In this document: positions 7,080 to 12,834 of the stretch, piece after piece
How positions within the stretch are numbered: the first letter of the stretch is position 1
Layout: the number at the start of each line of letters is the position of its first letter
Virus genome (UHGV): UHGV-0874476
Direction: 5' to 3' (one strand)
DNA length: 13,335 nt
From: a virus
Made by a program: the position numbers and the translations under genes
The notes under the pieces: model-generated
Told to the model about the DNA's origin: nothing
The model's database searches: none
Seen by the model: the letters and a program-made list of their open reading frames with translations, nothing else

Positions 7080-7372
7080 TACTGTCCCACCCCAAAATGT
7101 TTCCGCAGCATTGCCAATTCATCGACTGCTTTCAGAAATGCTGTCCGCATATCGGTATACCGAATACAATCCTGCTGGTGCTGGTCTTGAAGGTCTTTGC
7201 AAATTCTTTCCAACTCTGCAATTCTGTACTTTTCTTCTTTTTCCACTTTCTTAATTTCAACAGATTCATAAACATCTTCTAGTTTTGATCTAAGAACTGC
7301 GTTTTCGTCAATAAGGTTTCTGATTTGTTCAATCATTTCCTGCTTTGTCATTTCTCTTACACAATCGCACAT
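7079..7372 (-). CDS. hypothetical coiled-coil protein (97 aa)
   Basis: ATG 7372 preceded by GAGG at 9 nt; heptad-like charged/hydrophobic pattern; first gene after the tRNA island. Confidence 0.6.
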   Translation of the reverse strand: MCDCVREMTKQEMIEQIRNLIDENAVLRSKLEDVYESVEIKKVEKEEKYRIAELERICKDLQDQHQQDCIRYTDMRTAFLKAVDELAMLRKHFGVGQ

Positions 7373-7400
7373 ATTTTTTACCTCACAAAATTATTTGAAA

Positions 7401-7426
7401 TGCGCGGGTGTGGATTTGCACCACAC
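7401..7426 (-). other. tRNA 3'-half-like remnant (T-arm-like hairpin GUGUGG-UGCAAAU-CCACAC plus CCCGCGCA tail); no matching 5' acceptor strand found
   Basis: plus-strand gtgtggatttgcaccacac; no complementary acceptor within 100 nt upstream on minus strand. Confidence 0.3.
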
Positions 7427-7557
7427 ATGATTTTCATTCCTACAAGTGTCCTCCGAATTATACATTCCCGACCACTATAAAATCTTATGTTTAAGCGTTT
7501 ACCTGTTCCGCCACCGCACATCACGCATTGATTACCGGCTCAATACGCAAAGCCTAA

Positions 7558-7671
7558 TTGCGACAGGTGGATTTGAACCACCGCTTATACCAACGCCAGA
7601 CCTTCCCAGATTTCAATGGTAGCTAGTCATATACTTTCTGTTGGGTGTGAGGATTTGAACCTCTGTCGCAA
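7558..7671 (-). other. composite tRNA-like structured element: 9-bp terminal inverted repeat enclosing two T-arm-like hairpins with identical UUCAAAU loops
   Basis: minus strand UUGCGACAG...CUGUCGCAA (perfect 9-bp complement); hairpins GAGG-UUCAAAU-CCUC and GGUGG-UUCAAAU-CCACC; neither hairpin has a canonical tRNA body around it. Confidence 0.35.
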
Positions 7672-7722
7672 ACCACGAAAGCTTTCTTCACAACAACAAC
7701 CGGATAAAATCATTGCTGTGCA

Positions 7723-7799
7723 TTGCCCTGAGTGGATTCGAACCACCGACAGCACGCCAGTTCATGTGTACGCTGCTCTACCAACTGAGCTACAGGGCA
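7723..7799 (-). tRNA. tRNA-like gene with canonical acceptor, D-arm and T-arm but non-canonical anticodon arm; identity undetermined, possibly pseudo-tRNA
   Basis: minus strand UGCCCUG-UA-GCUC-AGUUGGUA-GAGC ... GGUGG-UUCGAAU-CCACU-CAGGGCA-A; the 26 nt between D-arm and T-arm cannot form a 5-bp stem with 7-nt loop. Confidence 0.45.
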
Positions 7800-7912
7800 A
7801 ACCTTTTGATTTCGTAAACCGCCTATAATCCTCGGAAATCGTCAGAACTCCATGACGTTCCTTACCTCCAAACTAGGTTTTTAAAGCGCTTTATGGCTTT
7901 TACTTCCGCTTT

Positions 7913-7970
7913 GACATATGGATTGCTCGTCAGCAAATTACGCTCCGGATACCAGAGATCACCATATGTC
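7913..7970 (-). other. 58-nt three-way-junction structured element immediately 3' of tRNA-Thr
   Basis: minus strand GACAUAUGG...CCAUAUGUC (9-bp closing stem) enclosing hairpins CUCUGG-UAU-CCGGAG (one G-U) and UUGCU-GACG-AGCAA. Confidence 0.35.
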
Positions 7971-7972
7971 AG

Positions 7973-8044
7973 AGCCAGAAACCGGACTCGAACCGACAAT
8001 ATCAGCATTACAAGTACTGCGTTCTACCATTGAACTATTCTGGC
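7973..8044 (-). tRNA. tRNA-Thr (anticodon UGU)
   Basis: hand-folded cloverleaf: acceptor GCCAGAA/UUCUGGC, U8 A9, D-stem GUUC/GAAC, anticodon stem CAGUA/UGCUG, loop CUUGUAA, T-arm GUCGG-UUCGAGU-CCGGU, 72 nt. Confidence 0.88.
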
Positions 8045-8296
8045 TACTTAATAAACACCAGTAAACGCTATGCGAAAACCGGATTCCTTTTCTGAACCTG
8101 TCAGATAGGTAAAATATTCCCTTATAAAACCACTTGTCCAACTTATTTACCATACAGGTGTGGCACTAATAATTTACTTCCAGGAATCTTCCAGAATTAC
8201 CGACTACTGCTAATCACGGTCTATGGTCTTATCTCTCTGGAGAAGTTTTTTGCAAGGTTCTTCAGCAGGTATAAGTTGCCTTGCTATATGGAAAAG

Positions 8297-8369
8297 TACA
8301 GGGAGTAGGAGTCGAACCCACAATCGCTGGATATAAGCCAGGTGCAACGTACCGCATCACCTTCCCTGC
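8297..8369 (-). tRNA. probable tRNA, anticodon tentatively UAU (Ile, decoding AUA); atypical A8, weak D-stem, G1-U72
   Basis: acceptor GCAGGGA/UCCCUGU, anticodon stem CUGG/CCAG with loop CUUAUAU, T-arm GUGGG-UUCGACU-CCUAC, 73 nt. Confidence 0.5.
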
Positions 8370-8533
8370 AAAACGGCATTTCTGCCGTTAGCAACATGTT
8401 TTTCGTGCTATGCCTAAGCGCTAGGAAATATTTTCTATTTCCAAAACCTCCCGGCACTTGTGACGCACCTTTAATCAGCTCTCCGCTAGGAGGTTCTAGT
8501 ATAAAGGAGGTCTATCAAAAAAATGATAACAAA

Positions 8534-8605
8534 CGGGGATTGTAGGATTCGAACCTACGTATGCAAGAGTCAAAATCTTGTGTGTTTCCTCTTCACCAAA
8601 TCCCT
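8534..8605 (-). tRNA. tRNA-Gln (anticodon UUG)
   Basis: hand-folded cloverleaf: acceptor AGGGAUU/AAUCCCC (A1-C72 mismatch), 3-bp D-stem, anticodon stem CAAGA/UCUUG, loop UUUUGAC, T-arm GUAGG-UUCGAAU-CCUAC, discriminator G, 72 nt. Confidence 0.88.
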
Positions 8606-9098
8606 ATACTACGTTGCGATAAAAAGTACGATTCATAATATTTATAATTGTTGTTTTTGAAACCCCATAAACTTCCGCGATTCTCCTAGTTGATGTTTTC
8701 CCTTTTTGTTCTCTTATAAAACGAACATCTTTTTCCGTAAGTTTTCTGTTATTATATAATTCATTTTTTTTGCTTTCTTCAATCAAATGATATTTTGTAT
8801 TTTCCTTTGGTGTTACCCACTCTAAATTATCAACATAAGGATTTTTCTTATTTTCGTCTTTATGATGCACTATTTTCTTATTGTCATGATTCGGAATAAA
8901 CGTTTCAGCAACCGCCTTGTGAACTCTAATTCCTTTCACTGCTCCTCTTTTTCCAAGCGGTATATACACCATTAAGTAACCAGCCTTATTAACATTAAAT
9001 TTGTATATACGATTTGTCTTTAAATTTTTAATATTTCCATTTGTATCAATAACAAAATCCGCATATTCAATTCCCCCATATACCATAGTTTTAAACAT
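8604..9098 (-). CDS. HNH homing endonuclease-like protein (N-terminal NUMOD4-like segment, HNH_3-like core, C-terminal helix-turn-helix)
   Basis: motifs GIEYADFVIDTNGNIKNL and HHKDENKKNPYVDNLEWVTPKENTKYH; ATG 9098 preceded by AAAGGAG; stop codon overlaps first nucleotides of tRNA-Gln; ORF-track start 9173 is TTG without RBS. Confidence 0.75.
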   Translation of the reverse strand: MFKTMVYGGIEYADFVIDTNGNIKNLKTNRIYKFNVNKAGYLMVYIPLGKRGAVKGIRVHKAVAETFIPNHDNKKIVHHKDENKKNPYVDNLEWVTPKENTKYHLIEESKKNELYNNRKLTEKDVRFIREQKGKTSTRRIAEVYGVSKTTIINIMNRTFYRNVV

Positions 9099-9213
9099 AA
9101 TGCCACATTCTCCTTTACTGCGGATATTCCCAGTTTTATTCTCCGAATACCCCATTGTGCTTTTTCTTTGCAACCATTCTCTTCTGAACTCATAGCCTGA
9201 CAGGGCAAAATTT

Positions 9214-12185: not shown

Positions 12186-12539
12186 TCACTTCTTTTCAAA
12201 ATAAAATTTTACCGGAGCATCATTTTCTTTTACAATTCCGAAGTTCTTCGCAAGACGATAAATGAAATTCTTTTCTAATCTTTCATGCAAAGTCTGTAAT
12301 CTTTCCCGAAATTTTTCAATCGTATAAGTCGATTTGTAAAAATTACACATTCTACAAGCCGGATTGTAGTTTTCAATATCATTCGCTCCATTATGCCAGT
12401 AAAGAGGATTGATGTGATCTACCTGCATGTCCTTGTATTCCAGTTCACAACCGCAATAGGCACAATGTCCAGAATATTTGTTATATACCTGAATCCGTAT
12501 TGGTTTTGGAATTGGTTTTCGTTTTTTCTGTTCTTGCAT
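12186..12539 (-). CDS. HNH endonuclease (117 aa)
   Basis: classic HNH motif CAYCG...DHINP...N...CRMCN; ATG 12539 preceded by GGAG at 6 nt, 1 nt after upstream stop. Confidence 0.8.
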   Translation of the reverse strand: MQEQKKRKPIPKPIRIQVYNKYSGHCAYCGCELEYKDMQVDHINPLYWHNGANDIENYNPACRMCNFYKSTYTIEKFRERLQTLHERLEKNFIYRLAKNFGIVKENDAPVKFYFEKK

Positions 12540-12540
12540 A

Positions 12541-12834
12541 TTAATCTCCACTGATGTAAATGAAATCCGCATTTCTAAAACTCACATTCGGAAACATGTT
12601 TACAGCCACATTACACAAGGCAATAAACAAATCGCCTCTGTCATCTACAGTCTTAACTTTTCCATTTGTACCCTTGCAAACTATATTCTGCCCAGAAGCG
12701 TCTTTGGTTATAAAATAATCTGATTCATCGTTTAAGATAAAATCCATCGAAAGTGTTTTGCAAAGAATCCGAAATGCTTCTTCTGGTTCTATGTCAATAT
12801 TAAATGTTTGTTTTGATGTAACGTCAACTAACAT
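12541..12834 (-). CDS. hypothetical protein (97 aa); shares an identical 18-aa / 55-nt segment with the upstream gene
   Basis: ATG 12834 preceded by GAGGAA at 5 nt; C-terminal RGDLFIALCNVAVNMFPN encoded by repeat copy 12585-12639. Confidence 0.55.
   Translation of the reverse strand: MLVDVTSKQTFNIDIEPEEAFRILCKTLSMDFILNDESDYFITKDASGQNIVCKGTNGKVKTVDDRGDLFIALCNVAVNMFPNVSFRNADFIYISGD
12585..12639. repeat. direct repeat copy 1 (55 bp, identical to 13281-13335)
   Basis: cattcggaaacatgtttacagccacattacacaaggcaataaacaaatcgcctct; flanks diverge on the left. Confidence 0.9.

What the first reader, a model, noticed from the sequence alone, without database searches (positions are those of the whole stretch)
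7723..7799. tRNA-like gene with canonical acceptor, D and T arms but a disrupted anticodon arm
The acceptor (UGCCCUG/CAGGGCA), D-arm (GCUCAGUUGGUAGAGC) and T-arm (GGUGG-UUCGAAU-CCACU) are textbook, yet the 26 nt in between cannot form a 5-bp stem with 7-nt loop. The best pairing is a 4-bp stem with two G-U pairs and a ~14-nt loop containing CACAUGA. It could be a pseudo-tRNA, a tRNA with an expanded anticodon loop, or a decoy.
Basis: seen in the sequence. Interest (0 to 1): 0.5.

Follow-up and report, generated by a model that had tools for sequence, protein, structure and literature searches.

The report
Anticodon-less tRNA mimic in gut phage
A gut phage carries a gene that folds like the upper half of a tRNA but has no working anticodon arm, and it is the best-conserved piece of the phage's tRNA cluster, so it is probably kept for a job other than reading codons.

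Summary
A minus-strand tRNA-like gene at 7723-7799 has textbook acceptor, D and T arms (Rfam tRNA, 48.5 bits). The 27 nt between the D and T stems cannot form a 5-bp stem with a 7-nt loop.

Homologues change the interpretation. The gene has three allelic forms with middles of 27, 18 and 17 nt. None has an anticodon helix, and all keep only a 7-nt remnant, CA[C/G]AUG[A/G], at loop positions 32-38.

The acceptor/D/T "top half" is 88-100% identical in all genome pairs. Real tRNA-Gln and tRNA-Ile genes in the same pairs are often 55-80% identical, and the flanks are unalignable. The same gene also occurs in unrelated 144-151 kb phage contigs. It is therefore neither a decaying pseudogene nor a decoder with an expanded loop.

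It always lies at the 3' edge of the decoding tRNAs, and in three unrelated contexts it sits 25-37 nt upstream of the next start codon.

Most likely it is a non-decoding tRNA mimic recognised by RNase P, RNase Z and the CCA-adding enzyme. It would act as a processing ("punctuation") signal and/or a released stable RNA. A decoy role is not excluded, and the function is untested.

The window also holds two longer tRNA-shaped RNAs just downstream.

The parts
7723..7799 (-). Whole tRNA-like gene (77 nt; RNA position p = 7800 - p); type-1 allele
   Evidence: Rfam RF00005 at 48.5 bits with the anticodon arm skipped. ARAGORN gives tRNA-???. Identical copies in L081, L082, L084, L085, L087 and L088.
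7793..7799 (-). Acceptor stem, 5' strand (UGCCCUG)
   Evidence: Pairs 7/7 with 7724-7730. 100% of cells are paired across 9 alleles, and the changes seen are C-G to U.G or G-C to G.U.
7775..7790 (-). D arm (GCUC-AGUUGGUA-GAGC) with A14 and G18G19
   Evidence: Sequence read. Invariant stem in 10 of 11 alleles.
7748..7774 (-). 27-nt middle segment in place of position 26, the anticodon arm and the variable loop. It has only a weak 4-bp stem (two G.U pairs) around a 14-nt loop.
   Evidence: Folds no better than shuffles, z = +1.0. Replaced by 18-nt and 17-nt segments in allelic forms. Its last base (C48, window 7748) is invariant in all alleles.
7762..7768 (-). Core CACAUGA at the position of anticodon-loop nucleotides 32-38. 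Conserved as CA[C/G]AUG[A/G] in all three allele types.
   Evidence: Alignment A1: A33, A35, U36 and G37 are invariant while the 5-6 nt before the core are unrelated between types.
7731..7747 (-). T arm (GGUGG-UUCGAAU-CCACU), matching the GGTTCRANYCC motif
   Evidence: 97.8% of cells paired. One fully compensated pair (G-C to A-U, with the A.C intermediate also observed).
7723..7730 (-). Acceptor stem 3' strand (CAGGGCA, 7724-7730) and discriminator A73 (7723). No encoded CCA.
   Evidence: Sequence read. Conserved in all alleles.
7689..7720 (-). Context: 13-bp hairpin immediately 3' of the gene
   Evidence: MFE fold. L100 keeps 12 of the 13 pairs despite 8 base changes in the two arms, including one double (C-G to U-A) change; pairs counted by eye on the alignment.
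7558..7670 (-). Context: candidate A, a ~112-nt tRNA-shaped RNA with a 7-bp acceptor (UGCGACA/UGUCGCA), a T arm (GGUGG-UUCAAAU-CCACC), a hairpin at the D-arm position (GAGG-UUCAAAU-CCUC) and a long middle
   Evidence: Found by my own scan for a T arm plus a perfect acceptor. MFE fold. Conserved in L099 and L100. Only a weak tRNA-Sec hit in Rfam at 16 bits.
7400..7520 (-). Context: candidate B, a ~120-nt tRNA-shaped RNA with an acceptor (UGUGCGG/CCGCGCA), a D arm (GCGG-AACAGGUAAA-CGCU), a 6-bp T arm (GUGUGG-UGCAAAU-CCACAC) and a ~62-nt middle hairpin. It ends ~27 nt before the ORF start at 7372.
   Evidence: Sequence and MFE fold. The counterpart at the same position in L099 passes Rfam's tRNA threshold at 36.2 bits.
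7973..8044 (-). Context: canonical tRNA-Thr(UGU)
   Evidence: Rfam 65.6 bits, and ARAGORN.
8297..8369 (-). Context: tRNA-Ile(UAU)
   Evidence: Rfam 33.3 bits, and ARAGORN.
8534..8605 (-). Context: tRNA-Gln(UUG), first gene of the array. It abuts the stop of an HNH endonuclease ORF (8604-9173).
   Evidence: Rfam 59.6 bits. Pfam HNH_3.

Best explanation
The element is a tRNA-derived gene for a non-decoding, tRNA-shaped RNA.

**What is shown**
- The acceptor stem, D arm, T arm and tertiary-core bases (U8, A14, G18G19, C48, T loop) are intact and under constraint.
- The whole family lacks an anticodon helix. It keeps only a 7-nt remnant of the loop.
- It exists as three allelic forms at one locus.
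- It occurs in unrelated phage lineages.
- It always sits at the 3' edge of the decoding tRNAs of the array.

**What is inferred**
- The RNA is transcribed with the array and folds into the L-shaped top half.
- It is recognised by the host tRNA-maturation enzymes (RNase P at its 5' end, RNase Z after A73, then the CCA-adding enzyme). These enzymes need only the acceptor/T-arm/elbow.
- These cuts separate the tRNA array from the downstream message. They would create an mRNA 5' end 25-37 nt before the next start codon. This is a 'punctuation' role like plant-mitochondrial t-elements or the mascRNA of MALAT1.
- The same cuts release a stable 68-77-nt tRNA mimic that cannot enter translation.
- The conserved loop remnant suggests the released RNA may also have a function in trans.
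For: 1. **Top-half integrity.** Rfam tRNA scores 48.5 bits in the window and 38-48 bits for all other alleles, with the anticodon arm skipped.
2. **Three alleles at one locus.** The middles are 27, 18 and 17 nt. All three types precede the same downstream module: the window (type 1), L100 (type 2), L090 and L099 (type 3). The middles have little or no stable structure.
3. **Conservation.** Top-half identity is 88-100% in all 28 genome pairs. tRNA-Gln and tRNA-Ile in the same pairs are often 55-80% identical, and flanks are ~45-55%, which is background. The alignment shows an island of conservation within unalignable flanks.
4. **Stem substitutions are mostly pair-preserving.** Six variant pair types keep pairing and three break it, one of which is the intermediate of a compensated double change. 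A rough binomial gives p ~0.02, using a hand count of 7 preserving against 3 breaking events and a neutral expectation of 1/3.
5. **Presence in an unrelated lineage.** The type-2 allele occurs in 144-151 kb contigs. Over the 10-12 kb held for those loci, nothing else there matches the window apart from one 59-nt non-coding module in L094.
6. **Position.** It is the last normal-sized tRNA-like gene before the next ORF in every context. The gap to the ATG is 25-26 nt (dUTPase or an 89-aa ORF) or 35-37 nt (a 684-aa ORF), and 84 nt in L093. In the window's context the gap (334-425 nt) is filled by further non-decoding tRNA-shaped RNAs.
7. **Motif.** The T arm matches GGTTCRANYCC, the motif used to find t-elements that direct RNase P/Z cleavage at mRNA ends (PMC1920247).
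8. **Processing route.** No allele encodes CCA, and neither do the window's real tRNAs (sequence). The likely host is a Firmicute, where, from general knowledge, RNase Z plus CCA addition is the normal route.
Against: - No expression, processing or end-mapping data exist.
- Any ordinary tRNA could serve as a punctuation signal, so punctuation alone does not explain why a non-decoding form is preserved. It also does not explain why the CA[C/G]AUG[A/G] core is conserved while the 5-6 nt before it are not.
- Other non-decoding tRNA-like classes in related phages are not terminal in their arrays. They are followed ~300 nt later by tRNA-Thr or tRNA-Ala.
- One contig (L086) carries a deletion fusing the gene to candidate A. 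The gene may therefore be dispensable, or that contig may be defective or misassembled.
- Formal covariation support is weak: there are only 9-11 close alleles, and the shuffle control is not significant.
- High identity across unrelated phages could partly reflect recent horizontal transfer rather than long-term constraint.
Confidence: 0.45

Rival explanations
1. Trans-acting tRNA mimic or decoy. The processed RNA binds, and so titrates or inhibits, a host or rival-phage factor that recognises the tRNA body rather than the anticodon. Candidates include a tRNA-targeting immune nuclease or an acceptor-end-modifying toxin. Because the RNA cannot decode, it would not disturb translation.
For: The top half is conserved, the gene is retained in unrelated phage lineages, and the middle segments are discrete alternative cassettes with a conserved 7-nt core. 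That pattern fits a recognition surface in an arms race.

Several defence systems that target the tRNA body or ends are known. P2-OLD cuts off the anticodon arm, and phage tRNAs with shorter anticodon stems resist it (PMC12445682). By their titles and abstracts, Cas12a3 cleaves tRNA tails (PMC12851939) and bacterial Schlafen proteins mediate phage defence (PMC13056530). Related phages carry further non-decoding tRNA-like classes that are not array-terminal.
Against: There is no direct evidence and no known partner. No consistently linked protein gene was found. A stoichiometric decoy is a weak counter to a catalytic nuclease. No report of such decoys was found in the literature.
Confidence: 0.22
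2. Non-functional relic. A tRNA gene, possibly of the CAU type, lost the 3' strand of its anticodon stem. It persists by drift or by hitch-hiking in a recombination-prone tRNA array that contains homing endonucleases. Its wide distribution reflects recent horizontal transfer.
For: The 18-nt form equals a canonical tRNA minus exactly positions 39-43. HNH endonuclease genes flank the array. A natural deletion variant exists in L086. Some alleles carry uncompensated stem mismatches: L097/L002, L112 and L099. The covariation statistics are not significant.
Against: It is the most conserved element of the array, while real tRNAs around it are replaced or diverge. The arms stay paired and the tertiary-core bases are invariant. 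Three long-diverged allele types all keep the top half at 88-96% identity while their middles have diverged to ~41-56% with indels. The gene is present in every relative recovered by the pattern scans and in the two TerL-97% relatives, and in an unrelated lineage as well.
Confidence: 0.15
3. Decoding tRNA with an expanded anticodon loop (frameshift or quadruplet suppressor), or one with a mini-intron removed before use.
For: ARAGORN can force a 4-base 'gaac' anticodon or a Phe(GAA) with a 3-nt intron. The loop remnant contains CAU or GAU triplets.
Against: ARAGORN's models break the canonical D arm and differ between alleles: '???(ac)', 'Asp(atc)', or no call at all. The loop would be 12-14 nt, without U33 and with no stable stem. 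The allelic 17-18-nt forms have no stem at all. Other tRNAs of these arrays almost all obey the U33 and 7-nt loop rules. The ORFs of the window read through normally with the standard code. From general knowledge, no bacterial mechanism for splicing 3-9-nt tRNA introns is known.
Confidence: 0.03
4. DNA-level element. The conserved sequence would serve as a recombination or integration (attP-like) site, or as a protein-binding site, and not as an RNA.
For: Mosaic breakpoints lie at or next to the gene: L090 switches from divergent to identical just 3' of it, and the L086 deletion runs between two T-arm sequences.
Against: The conservation pattern follows the cloverleaf: paired columns change in a pair-preserving way, with one compensated double change. 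The 5' half was absent from gut Firmicutes among 185,579 species genomes. It occurs only as tRNA-Asn in cyanobacteria and a Desulfovibrio, plus three unrelated hits elsewhere. No integrase was seen in the window.
Confidence: 0.04

Closest known systems
Plant-mitochondrial t-elements (tRNA-like processing signals; Forner et al. 2007, PMC1920247)
   Same: Non-canonical cloverleaf with an intact acceptor stem and T arm carrying GGTTCRANYCC. It sits next to an mRNA end, and the proposed role is as a cis-signal for RNase P and RNase Z. It is not used for decoding.
   Different: A different domain of life and genome type. Here the element lies inside a phage tRNA array, keeps a full D arm and tertiary core, and is highly conserved in sequence. 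Cleavage has not been shown.
mascRNA / menRNA (tRNA-like RNAs cut from MALAT1 and MEN-beta; PMC11693755, PMC8457004)
   Same: A tRNA mimic with a reduced anticodon region that, from general knowledge, is non-conserved. It is processed by RNase P and RNase Z. From general knowledge, it also receives CCA, is not aminoacylated, and defines the end of a neighbouring transcript while being released as a stable small RNA.
   Different: Those are eukaryotic nuclear lncRNA elements. mascRNA keeps a short anticodon-like stem-loop, while the type-2 and type-3 alleles here have none.
Bacteriophage T4 'species 1' and 'species 2' stable RNAs (RNA C/D) in the T4 tRNA cluster (own knowledge; not retrieved in the library)
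   Same: Non-decoding stable RNAs encoded inside a phage tRNA gene cluster, with tRNA-like terminal pairing and maturation by the tRNA-processing machinery. Their function is still unknown. They resemble candidates A and B of this window (112-120 nt) even more closely than the flagged gene.
   Different: No sequence relationship was tested. The T4 RNAs are longer (about 120-140 nt), whereas the flagged gene is tRNA-sized with a complete D arm, T arm and acceptor.
Nuclease-resistant phage tRNAs (anticodon-loop or stem variants evading PrrC-like nucleases, PARIS or OLD; PMC10264068, PMC11464382, PMC12445682)
   Same: Phage-encoded, sited in tRNA arrays, and with altered anticodon arms (loop substitutions or shortened stems).
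   Different: Those are still functional decoders with a 7-nt loop and a defined anticodon that replace cleaved host tRNAs. This RNA cannot decode.
Canonical bacterial tRNA-Asn(GUU)
   Same: The first 25 nt (acceptor 5' strand plus D arm) are identical to tRNA-Asn genes of Moorena and a Desulfovibrio, allowing one free D-loop base. U1-A72 is shared.
   Different: There is no GUU anticodon and no anticodon stem. The discriminator is A73 instead of G73, and the T arm differs. Probably only shared ancestry or convergence.

Membership tests
Canonical decoding tRNA (Rfam RF00005) | 7-bp acceptor stem with an unpaired discriminator | tested here: met
   UGCCCUG/CAGGGCA plus A73. 100% of cells paired in 9 alleles.
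Canonical decoding tRNA (Rfam RF00005) | D arm with G18G19 and T arm with a UUCRANY loop; score above the family threshold | tested here: met
   48.5 bits against a gathering score of 29. Other alleles score 38-48 bits.
Canonical decoding tRNA (Rfam RF00005) | 5-bp anticodon stem closing a 7-nt loop with U33, a defined anticodon and a purine at 37 | tested here: not met
   The covariance model skips the arm. The best stem is 4 bp with two G.U pairs around 14 nt. Position 33 is A. The short alleles have no 3' strand.
Expanded-anticodon-loop (quadruplet or frameshift-suppressor) tRNA | Intact anticodon stem with an 8-9-nt loop, conserved among homologues | tested here: not met
   The loop is 12-14 nt in the window. 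The middle segment is 27, 18 or 17 nt in different alleles.
Intron-containing tRNA (bacterial group I intron or archaeal bulge-helix-bulge intron) | An insert with a group I fold (>200 nt) or a bulge-helix-bulge motif at 37/38 | tested here: not met
   The excess is only 4-5 nt. No intron family appeared in the Rfam scans. ARAGORN's '3-nt intron' requires a distorted D arm.
tmRNA | tRNA-like domain with G3:U70 plus a tag reading frame and pseudoknots | tested here: not met
   ARAGORN and Rfam find no tmRNA. Pair 3:70 is C-G, and the RNA is only 77 nt.
Decaying tRNA pseudogene | Relaxed constraint over the whole gene, with sporadic distribution | tested here: not met
   The top half is 88-100% identical where real tRNAs are 55-80% and flanks ~50%. 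The gene is also present in an unrelated phage lineage.
t-element / mascRNA-type processing signal | tRNA-like top half (acceptor plus a T arm with GGTTCRANYCC) and a non-decoding anticodon region | tested here: met
   GGTTCGAATCC is present, the arms are intact and there is no anticodon arm.
t-element / mascRNA-type processing signal | Ends coincide with the ends of neighbouring transcripts | tested here: inconclusive
   Only position could be tested. The gene is the last tRNA-sized element, 25-37 nt before the next ATG in three unrelated contexts, but 334-425 nt in the window's own context. No transcript ends are available.
t-element / mascRNA-type processing signal | Cleavage by RNase P and RNase Z, and CCA addition | not testable with these tools
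   Needs in vitro cleavage assays or end-mapping by RNA sequencing.
YrlA / bacterial Y RNA tRNA-like module | Match to the Rfam Y RNA-like families; a closed acceptor-like stem with the termini in the long stem | tested here: not met
   No such hit at E <= 10 in 7300-8700. The termini are at the acceptor stem.
T4 species 1/2-type stable RNAs of phage tRNA clusters | Encoded within a phage tRNA cluster; non-decoding | tested here: met
   Fourth gene of the Gln-Ile-Thr array on the same strand. Non-decoding as shown above.
T4 species 1/2-type stable RNAs of phage tRNA clusters | Sequence or structure homology to the T4 RNAs; accumulation as a stable processed RNA | not tested
   No T4 comparison was run, and no expression data are available.

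The most novel reading that the evidence does not exclude
The flagged gene, candidates A and B in the window, and the further non-decoding classes in related phages may together form an unrecognised class of phage 'tRNA-scaffold' RNAs. In this reading the tRNA top half supplies processing, CCA addition and stability. The anticodon-arm position carries a non-decoding payload of 12-62 nt that acts in trans, for example as a mimic or inhibitor of tRNA-targeting immune effectors. That would make them RNA-based anti-defence factors encoded in tRNA arrays.
Probability: 0.18. Interest if true: 0.85.

Novelty: new variant of a known kind. Interest (0 to 1): 0.55.

Why it matters
Phage tRNA genes are currently explained by codon compensation or by replacement of host tRNAs destroyed by immune nucleases. 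Both explanations require decoding. Here a tRNA-shaped RNA that cannot decode is the best-conserved member of a fast-changing tRNA array and is shared by unrelated gut phages. Something other than translation is therefore being selected: transcript processing, or an interaction with a protein that binds the tRNA body.

It offers a compact, testable model for non-decoding RNAs in phage tRNA clusters. From general knowledge, the role of the T4 species 1/2 RNAs is a related open question. tRNA finders either miss this gene or give it arbitrary anticodons, so such genes are probably under-counted and mis-annotated in viromes.

Tried and rejected
- **First collection scan:** an exact D-arm and T-arm pattern with an expanded spacer found nothing in viral contigs, because it was too strict. 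One pattern was rejected for syntax.
- **ARAGORN's '4-base anticodon' and '3-nt intron' readings:** rejected. They distort the canonical D arm and are inconsistent between alleles.
- **MFE of the whole RNA:** it proposes a non-tRNA 9-bp helix that steals G53 from the T stem. This is not supported by the alleles.
- **Formal covariation test:** inconclusive, with too few and too similar alleles.
- **Host-tRNA mimicry:** the 5' half was found in only 9 of 185,579 species genomes. Six of these are tRNA-Asn genes (five cyanobacterial, one Desulfovibrio), and none is a gut Firmicute. A copy of a host tRNA, or an attP-type match, is therefore not supported.
- **Promoter and terminator scan:** no enrichment.
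- **Neighbouring proteins:** Pfam and PHROGs found HNH endonucleases, a dUTPase and unknowns, and nothing related to tRNA.
- **A conserved 'ORF' upstream of the gene in L002-type genomes:** there is no ORF, and the stretch is non-coding.
- **Literature searches:** no report of anticodon-less phage tRNAs or RNA decoys was found.
- **A small ORF starting at the AUG of the core:** the AUG stays in frame across the 9-nt indel. I considered this a coincidence (1 in 3 by chance) and did not pursue it.
- **The + strand ORF 7616-7828:** not coding, because its flanks are not conserved between contexts.

Full report
**1. The observation**

The flagged stretch is a minus-strand gene. The reverse complement of 7723-7799 reads UGCCCUG-UA-GCUC-AGUUGGUA-GAGC-AGCGUACACAUGAACUGGCGUGCUGUC-GGUGG-UUCGAAU-CCACU-CAGGGCA-A. 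Rfam's tRNA covariance model matches it from model position 1 to 71 at 48.5 bits (threshold 29, E = 5.5e-08). It does so by jumping over the anticodon arm: 13 model positions are replaced by 18 unaligned bases.

ARAGORN calls it 'tRNA-???' with a four-base 'gaac' anticodon, or Phe(GAA) with a 3-nt intron. In both drawings it breaks the perfect GCUC/GAGC D stem. The spacer is 27 nt rather than 26.

On its own this segment folds no better than its shuffles (z = +1.0). The equivalent segments of the window's tRNA-Thr, tRNA-Ile and tRNA-Gln give clean 5-bp/7-nt hairpins.

**2. Setting**

The window is part of an uncultivated tailed phage with 38% G+C and its genes on the minus strand. It includes an SPP1-type portal and a large terminase. 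No close deposited relative exists. The nearest cultured terminase is from a [Clostridium] innocuum phage at 44% identity, and all closer matches come from human faecal viromes.

The gene is the fourth member of an array on the coding strand: tRNA-Gln(UUG) 8534-8605, tRNA-Ile(UAU) 8297-8369, tRNA-Thr(UGU) 7973-8044, then the odd gene. An HNH endonuclease ORF abuts tRNA-Gln.

**3. Homologues**

I collected relatives by three routes:
- terminase-anchored loci from the viral collection, and contigs encoding the downstream 97-aa protein;
- a DNA pattern anchored on the acceptor and T arms;
- a pattern independent of the acceptor sequence.

This gave 11 distinct alleles. They fall into three types that share the acceptor, D and T arms but differ in the middle:

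| Type | Loci | Sequence from D stem to T stem |
|---|---|---|
| 1 (27 nt) | window, L001 | GAGC-AGCGUA-CACAUGA-ACUGGCGUGCUGUC-GGUGG |
| 2 (18 nt) | L002, L093-L097, L100, L111-L113 | GAGC-AUACAU-CACAUGA-UAAGC-GGUGG |
| 3 (17 nt) | L090, L099 | GAGC-GUCGA-CAGAUGG-CGGUC and GAAC-ACUUG-CAGAUGG-AGGUC |

Type 2 is exactly a canonical tRNA with positions 39-43, the 3' strand of the anticodon stem, missing. The conserved heptamer CA[C/G]AUG[A/G] sits where loop positions 32-38 would be. The last base before the T stem (C48, the usual partner of G15) is invariant.

Types 2 and 3 have essentially no secondary structure in the middle, at 0 to -1.8 kcal/mol. All three types are found in front of the same downstream module: the window has type 1, L100 type 2, and L090 and L099 type 3. 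L090 is 99% identical to the window (3 differences in 350 nt) from just 3' of the gene onwards and unalignable upstream. The types therefore behave as alleles of one locus exchanged by recombination.

The missing anticodon arm is thus a stable property of the family, not an accident of this copy. That excludes a decoding role.

**4. Selection**

Across 28 genome pairs, the 50 nt of acceptor, D and T arms are 88-100% identical. In the same pairs tRNA-Gln and tRNA-Ile are frequently only 55-80% identical, because they have been swapped for other versions. The 100 nt on either side are at background, ~45-55%. The multiple alignment shows the gene as an island between unalignable flanks in at least four contexts.

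Within types the middle is 93-100% identical, and between types it is 41-56%.

In the stems, six variant pair types keep pairing:
- C-G to U.G at 3:70 and at 5:68;
- G-C to G.U at 7:66;
- G.U to G-C and G.U to A-U at the first T-stem pair;
- a double change, G-C to A-U, at the second T-stem pair.

Three variants break pairing, and one of them is the A.C intermediate of that double change. With a hand count of 7 preserving against 3 breaking events, this is more pair-preserving than a rough neutral expectation of one third (p ~0.02). The formal shuffle test on so few similar sequences is not significant.

The type-2 allele also occurs in 144-151 kb contigs (L111 and L113, with L094 and L096 sharing the same context). 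Over the 10-12 kb held for those loci, nothing else matches the window except one 59-nt non-coding module in L094. Retention in an unrelated lineage argues for usefulness, although recent transfer also contributes to the high identity.

**5. Position**

In every context the gene is the last tRNA-sized element before the next protein gene.

| Context | Gap to next start codon |
|---|---|
| dUTPase gene (L002, L095, L097) | 25 nt |
| 89-aa ORF (L001, L112) | 26 nt |
| 684-aa ORF of unknown function, phrog_1735 (L094, L096, L111) | 35-37 nt |
| L093 | 84 nt |
| Window, L090, L100 and L099 | 334-425 nt |

In the last row the gap is occupied by a 13-bp hairpin (7689-7720) and two or more longer tRNA-shaped RNAs. 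No protein gene is consistently linked to the odd gene.

**6. Mechanism**

*Shown:* the tRNA top half is intact and constrained, there is no anticodon helix, the gene lies at the 3' edge of the decoding tRNAs, and no CCA is encoded.

*Inferred:* RNase P, RNase Z and the CCA-adding enzyme recognise only the acceptor/T-arm/elbow (established knowledge). They should therefore process this RNA like a tRNA. That would cut the array transcript from the downstream message and release a 68-77-nt tRNA mimic that cannot be used in translation.

This is how plant-mitochondrial t-elements are proposed to work. Those are non-canonical tRNA-like structures that carry the same GGTTCRANYCC motif and lie at mRNA ends (PMC1920247). 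The mascRNA of MALAT1 is processed in the same way (PMC11693755, PMC8457004).

I put about 0.85 on 'selected, non-decoding tRNA mimic' and about 0.35-0.4 on punctuation as its main role.

Punctuation has two weaknesses. Any ordinary tRNA could do the same job, and it does not explain the conserved heptamer.

The main rival is a trans-acting decoy for a factor that binds the tRNA body. That idea is made plausible by the growing list of defence systems that attack tRNA stems or tails (PMC12445682 for OLD; PMC12851939 for Cas12a3; PMC13056530 for Schlafens). It has no direct support here.

**7. Wider pattern**

A structural scan that leaves the middle free shows that the related phage arrays hold other tRNA-like genes with non-decoding arms. 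Most are missed by ARAGORN.
- One class has a 5-bp stem and 5-nt loop (CAGAG-UCGCG-CUCUG), with a compensatory CAAAG/CUUUG variant.
- Another has a 4-bp stem and 9-nt loop.
- Several have 4-7-bp stems with 4-5-nt loops.

About 25 of 73 loci carry one (a rough tally, after excluding canonical long-variable-arm Tyr and Ser tRNAs).

The ordinary tRNAs of the same arrays almost all have U33 and 7-nt loops. The odd genes are therefore not a sign of generally relaxed tRNA rules. These other classes are not array-terminal, which keeps a trans-acting function in play for the group as a whole.

**8. Verdict**

The closest known kinds are tRNA-like processing signals (t-elements, mascRNA) and, from general knowledge, the stable non-tRNA RNAs of the T4 tRNA cluster.

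I rate it a new variant of a known kind. It is interesting because it is conserved, allelic, shared between unrelated gut phages and invisible or mis-called by standard tRNA finders. Its function remains inferred.

Noticed in passing
window 7558-7670 (-): Candidate A, a ~112-nt RNA with a perfect 7-bp acceptor-like stem (UGCGACA/UGUCGCA), an adjacent T arm (GGUGG-UUCAAAU-CCACC), a second T-loop-like hairpin at the D-arm position (GAGG-UUCAAAU-CCUC) and a ~56-nt middle. ARAGORN does not call it and Rfam gives only 16 bits (tRNA-Sec). It is conserved, with 3 substitutions, in L099 and L100.
   Followed up: partly
window 7400-7520 (-): Candidate B, a ~120-nt tRNA-shaped RNA with an acceptor stem, a D arm (GCGG-AACAGGUAAA-CGCU), a 6-bp T arm (loop UGCAAAU) and a ~62-nt long hairpin where the anticodon arm would be. 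It ends ~27 nt before the ORF starting at 7372. L099 and L100 carry a different long tRNA-like RNA at the same place, which passes Rfam's tRNA threshold (L099 3304-3409, 36.2 bits).
   Followed up: partly
window 7689-7720 (-): A 13-bp hairpin two bases after the odd gene. In L100, 8 of its stem bases differ yet 12 of 13 pairs are kept, including one double (C-G to U-A) change, so it looks like a selected RNA structure.
   Followed up: partly
window 7905-7971 (-): A conserved non-coding module between tRNA-Thr and the odd gene. It has a 9-bp closing stem (GACAUAUGG...CCAUAUGUC) around two inner hairpins, like a three-way junction. It is also present in L001, L002 and L112, and at 95% identity in the otherwise unrelated L094 context. 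There is no Rfam match.
   Followed up: no
L086 1179-1255: A natural deletion variant. The 5' part of the odd gene is fused to the 3' end of candidate A through the two similar T-arm sequences, which removes ~130 nt. This suggests T arms act as recombination sites, and that the gene can be lost, or that the contig is chimeric.
   Followed up: partly
L014 2146, L025 5540, L026 4945, L043 5801, L048 5416, L071 5042; L039 1598, L045 5916, L052 5784, L070 6175: Two further classes of tRNA-like genes in terminase-related phages, with good acceptor and T arms but non-decoding middles. One has a 5-bp stem and 5-nt loop (UCGCG), with a compensatory CAGAG/CUCUG to CAAAG/CUUUG variant. The other has a 4-bp stem and 9-nt loop. 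Neither is called by ARAGORN.
   Followed up: partly
L065 3758, L062 3963, L021 3581, L022 5280; L029 3284: 'tRNA-Met(CAU)' genes whose anticodon loop is CGCAUAG (G33 instead of the universal U33). Two compensatory changes in the anticodon stem (GAGGA/UCCUU against GAGAG/CUCUU) indicate a real, selected stem. Another set has CCCAUAU (C33). Their D and T arms are the closest full-cloverleaf match to the odd gene, so they may be its ancestors.
   Followed up: partly
L025 5900 versus L071 5402, L047 and others: Near-identical tRNA genes that differ by one base in the anticodon: Thr UGU in most phages and Ala UGC in L025. This looks like an apparent anticodon switch.
   Followed up: no
L099 3179-3266: An 88-nt gene scoring 57.8 bits on Rfam's tRNA model but missed by ARAGORN. 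It has a normal anticodon arm with an apparent GUU (Asn) anticodon, and a ~24-nt D loop that contains its own small hairpin.
   Followed up: no
window 8297-8369 (-) and the arrays of all loci: The array composition is highly variable between close relatives. The second gene is either Ile(UAU) or a CAU-type tRNA. The window's tRNA-Ile(UAU) scores only 33.3 bits because of an unusual D arm. The odd gene always co-occurs with an Ile(UAU) or a CAU-type gene, and its own loop remnant contains CAU or GAU.
   Followed up: no
window 8604-9173 (-) and 12186-12572 (-): Two HNH endonuclease genes. The first ends at the first bases of tRNA-Gln, which suggests homing-endonuclease-driven turnover of the tRNA array.
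   Followed up: no
L002 7129-7226 and 7590-7650: Additional T-arm-bearing elements in the non-coding stretch between tRNA-Ile and the odd gene, for example GAGAGUG...AAAGG-UUCGAAU-CCUUU-CACUCUC-A with a 7-bp acceptor. ARAGORN does not call them.
   Followed up: no
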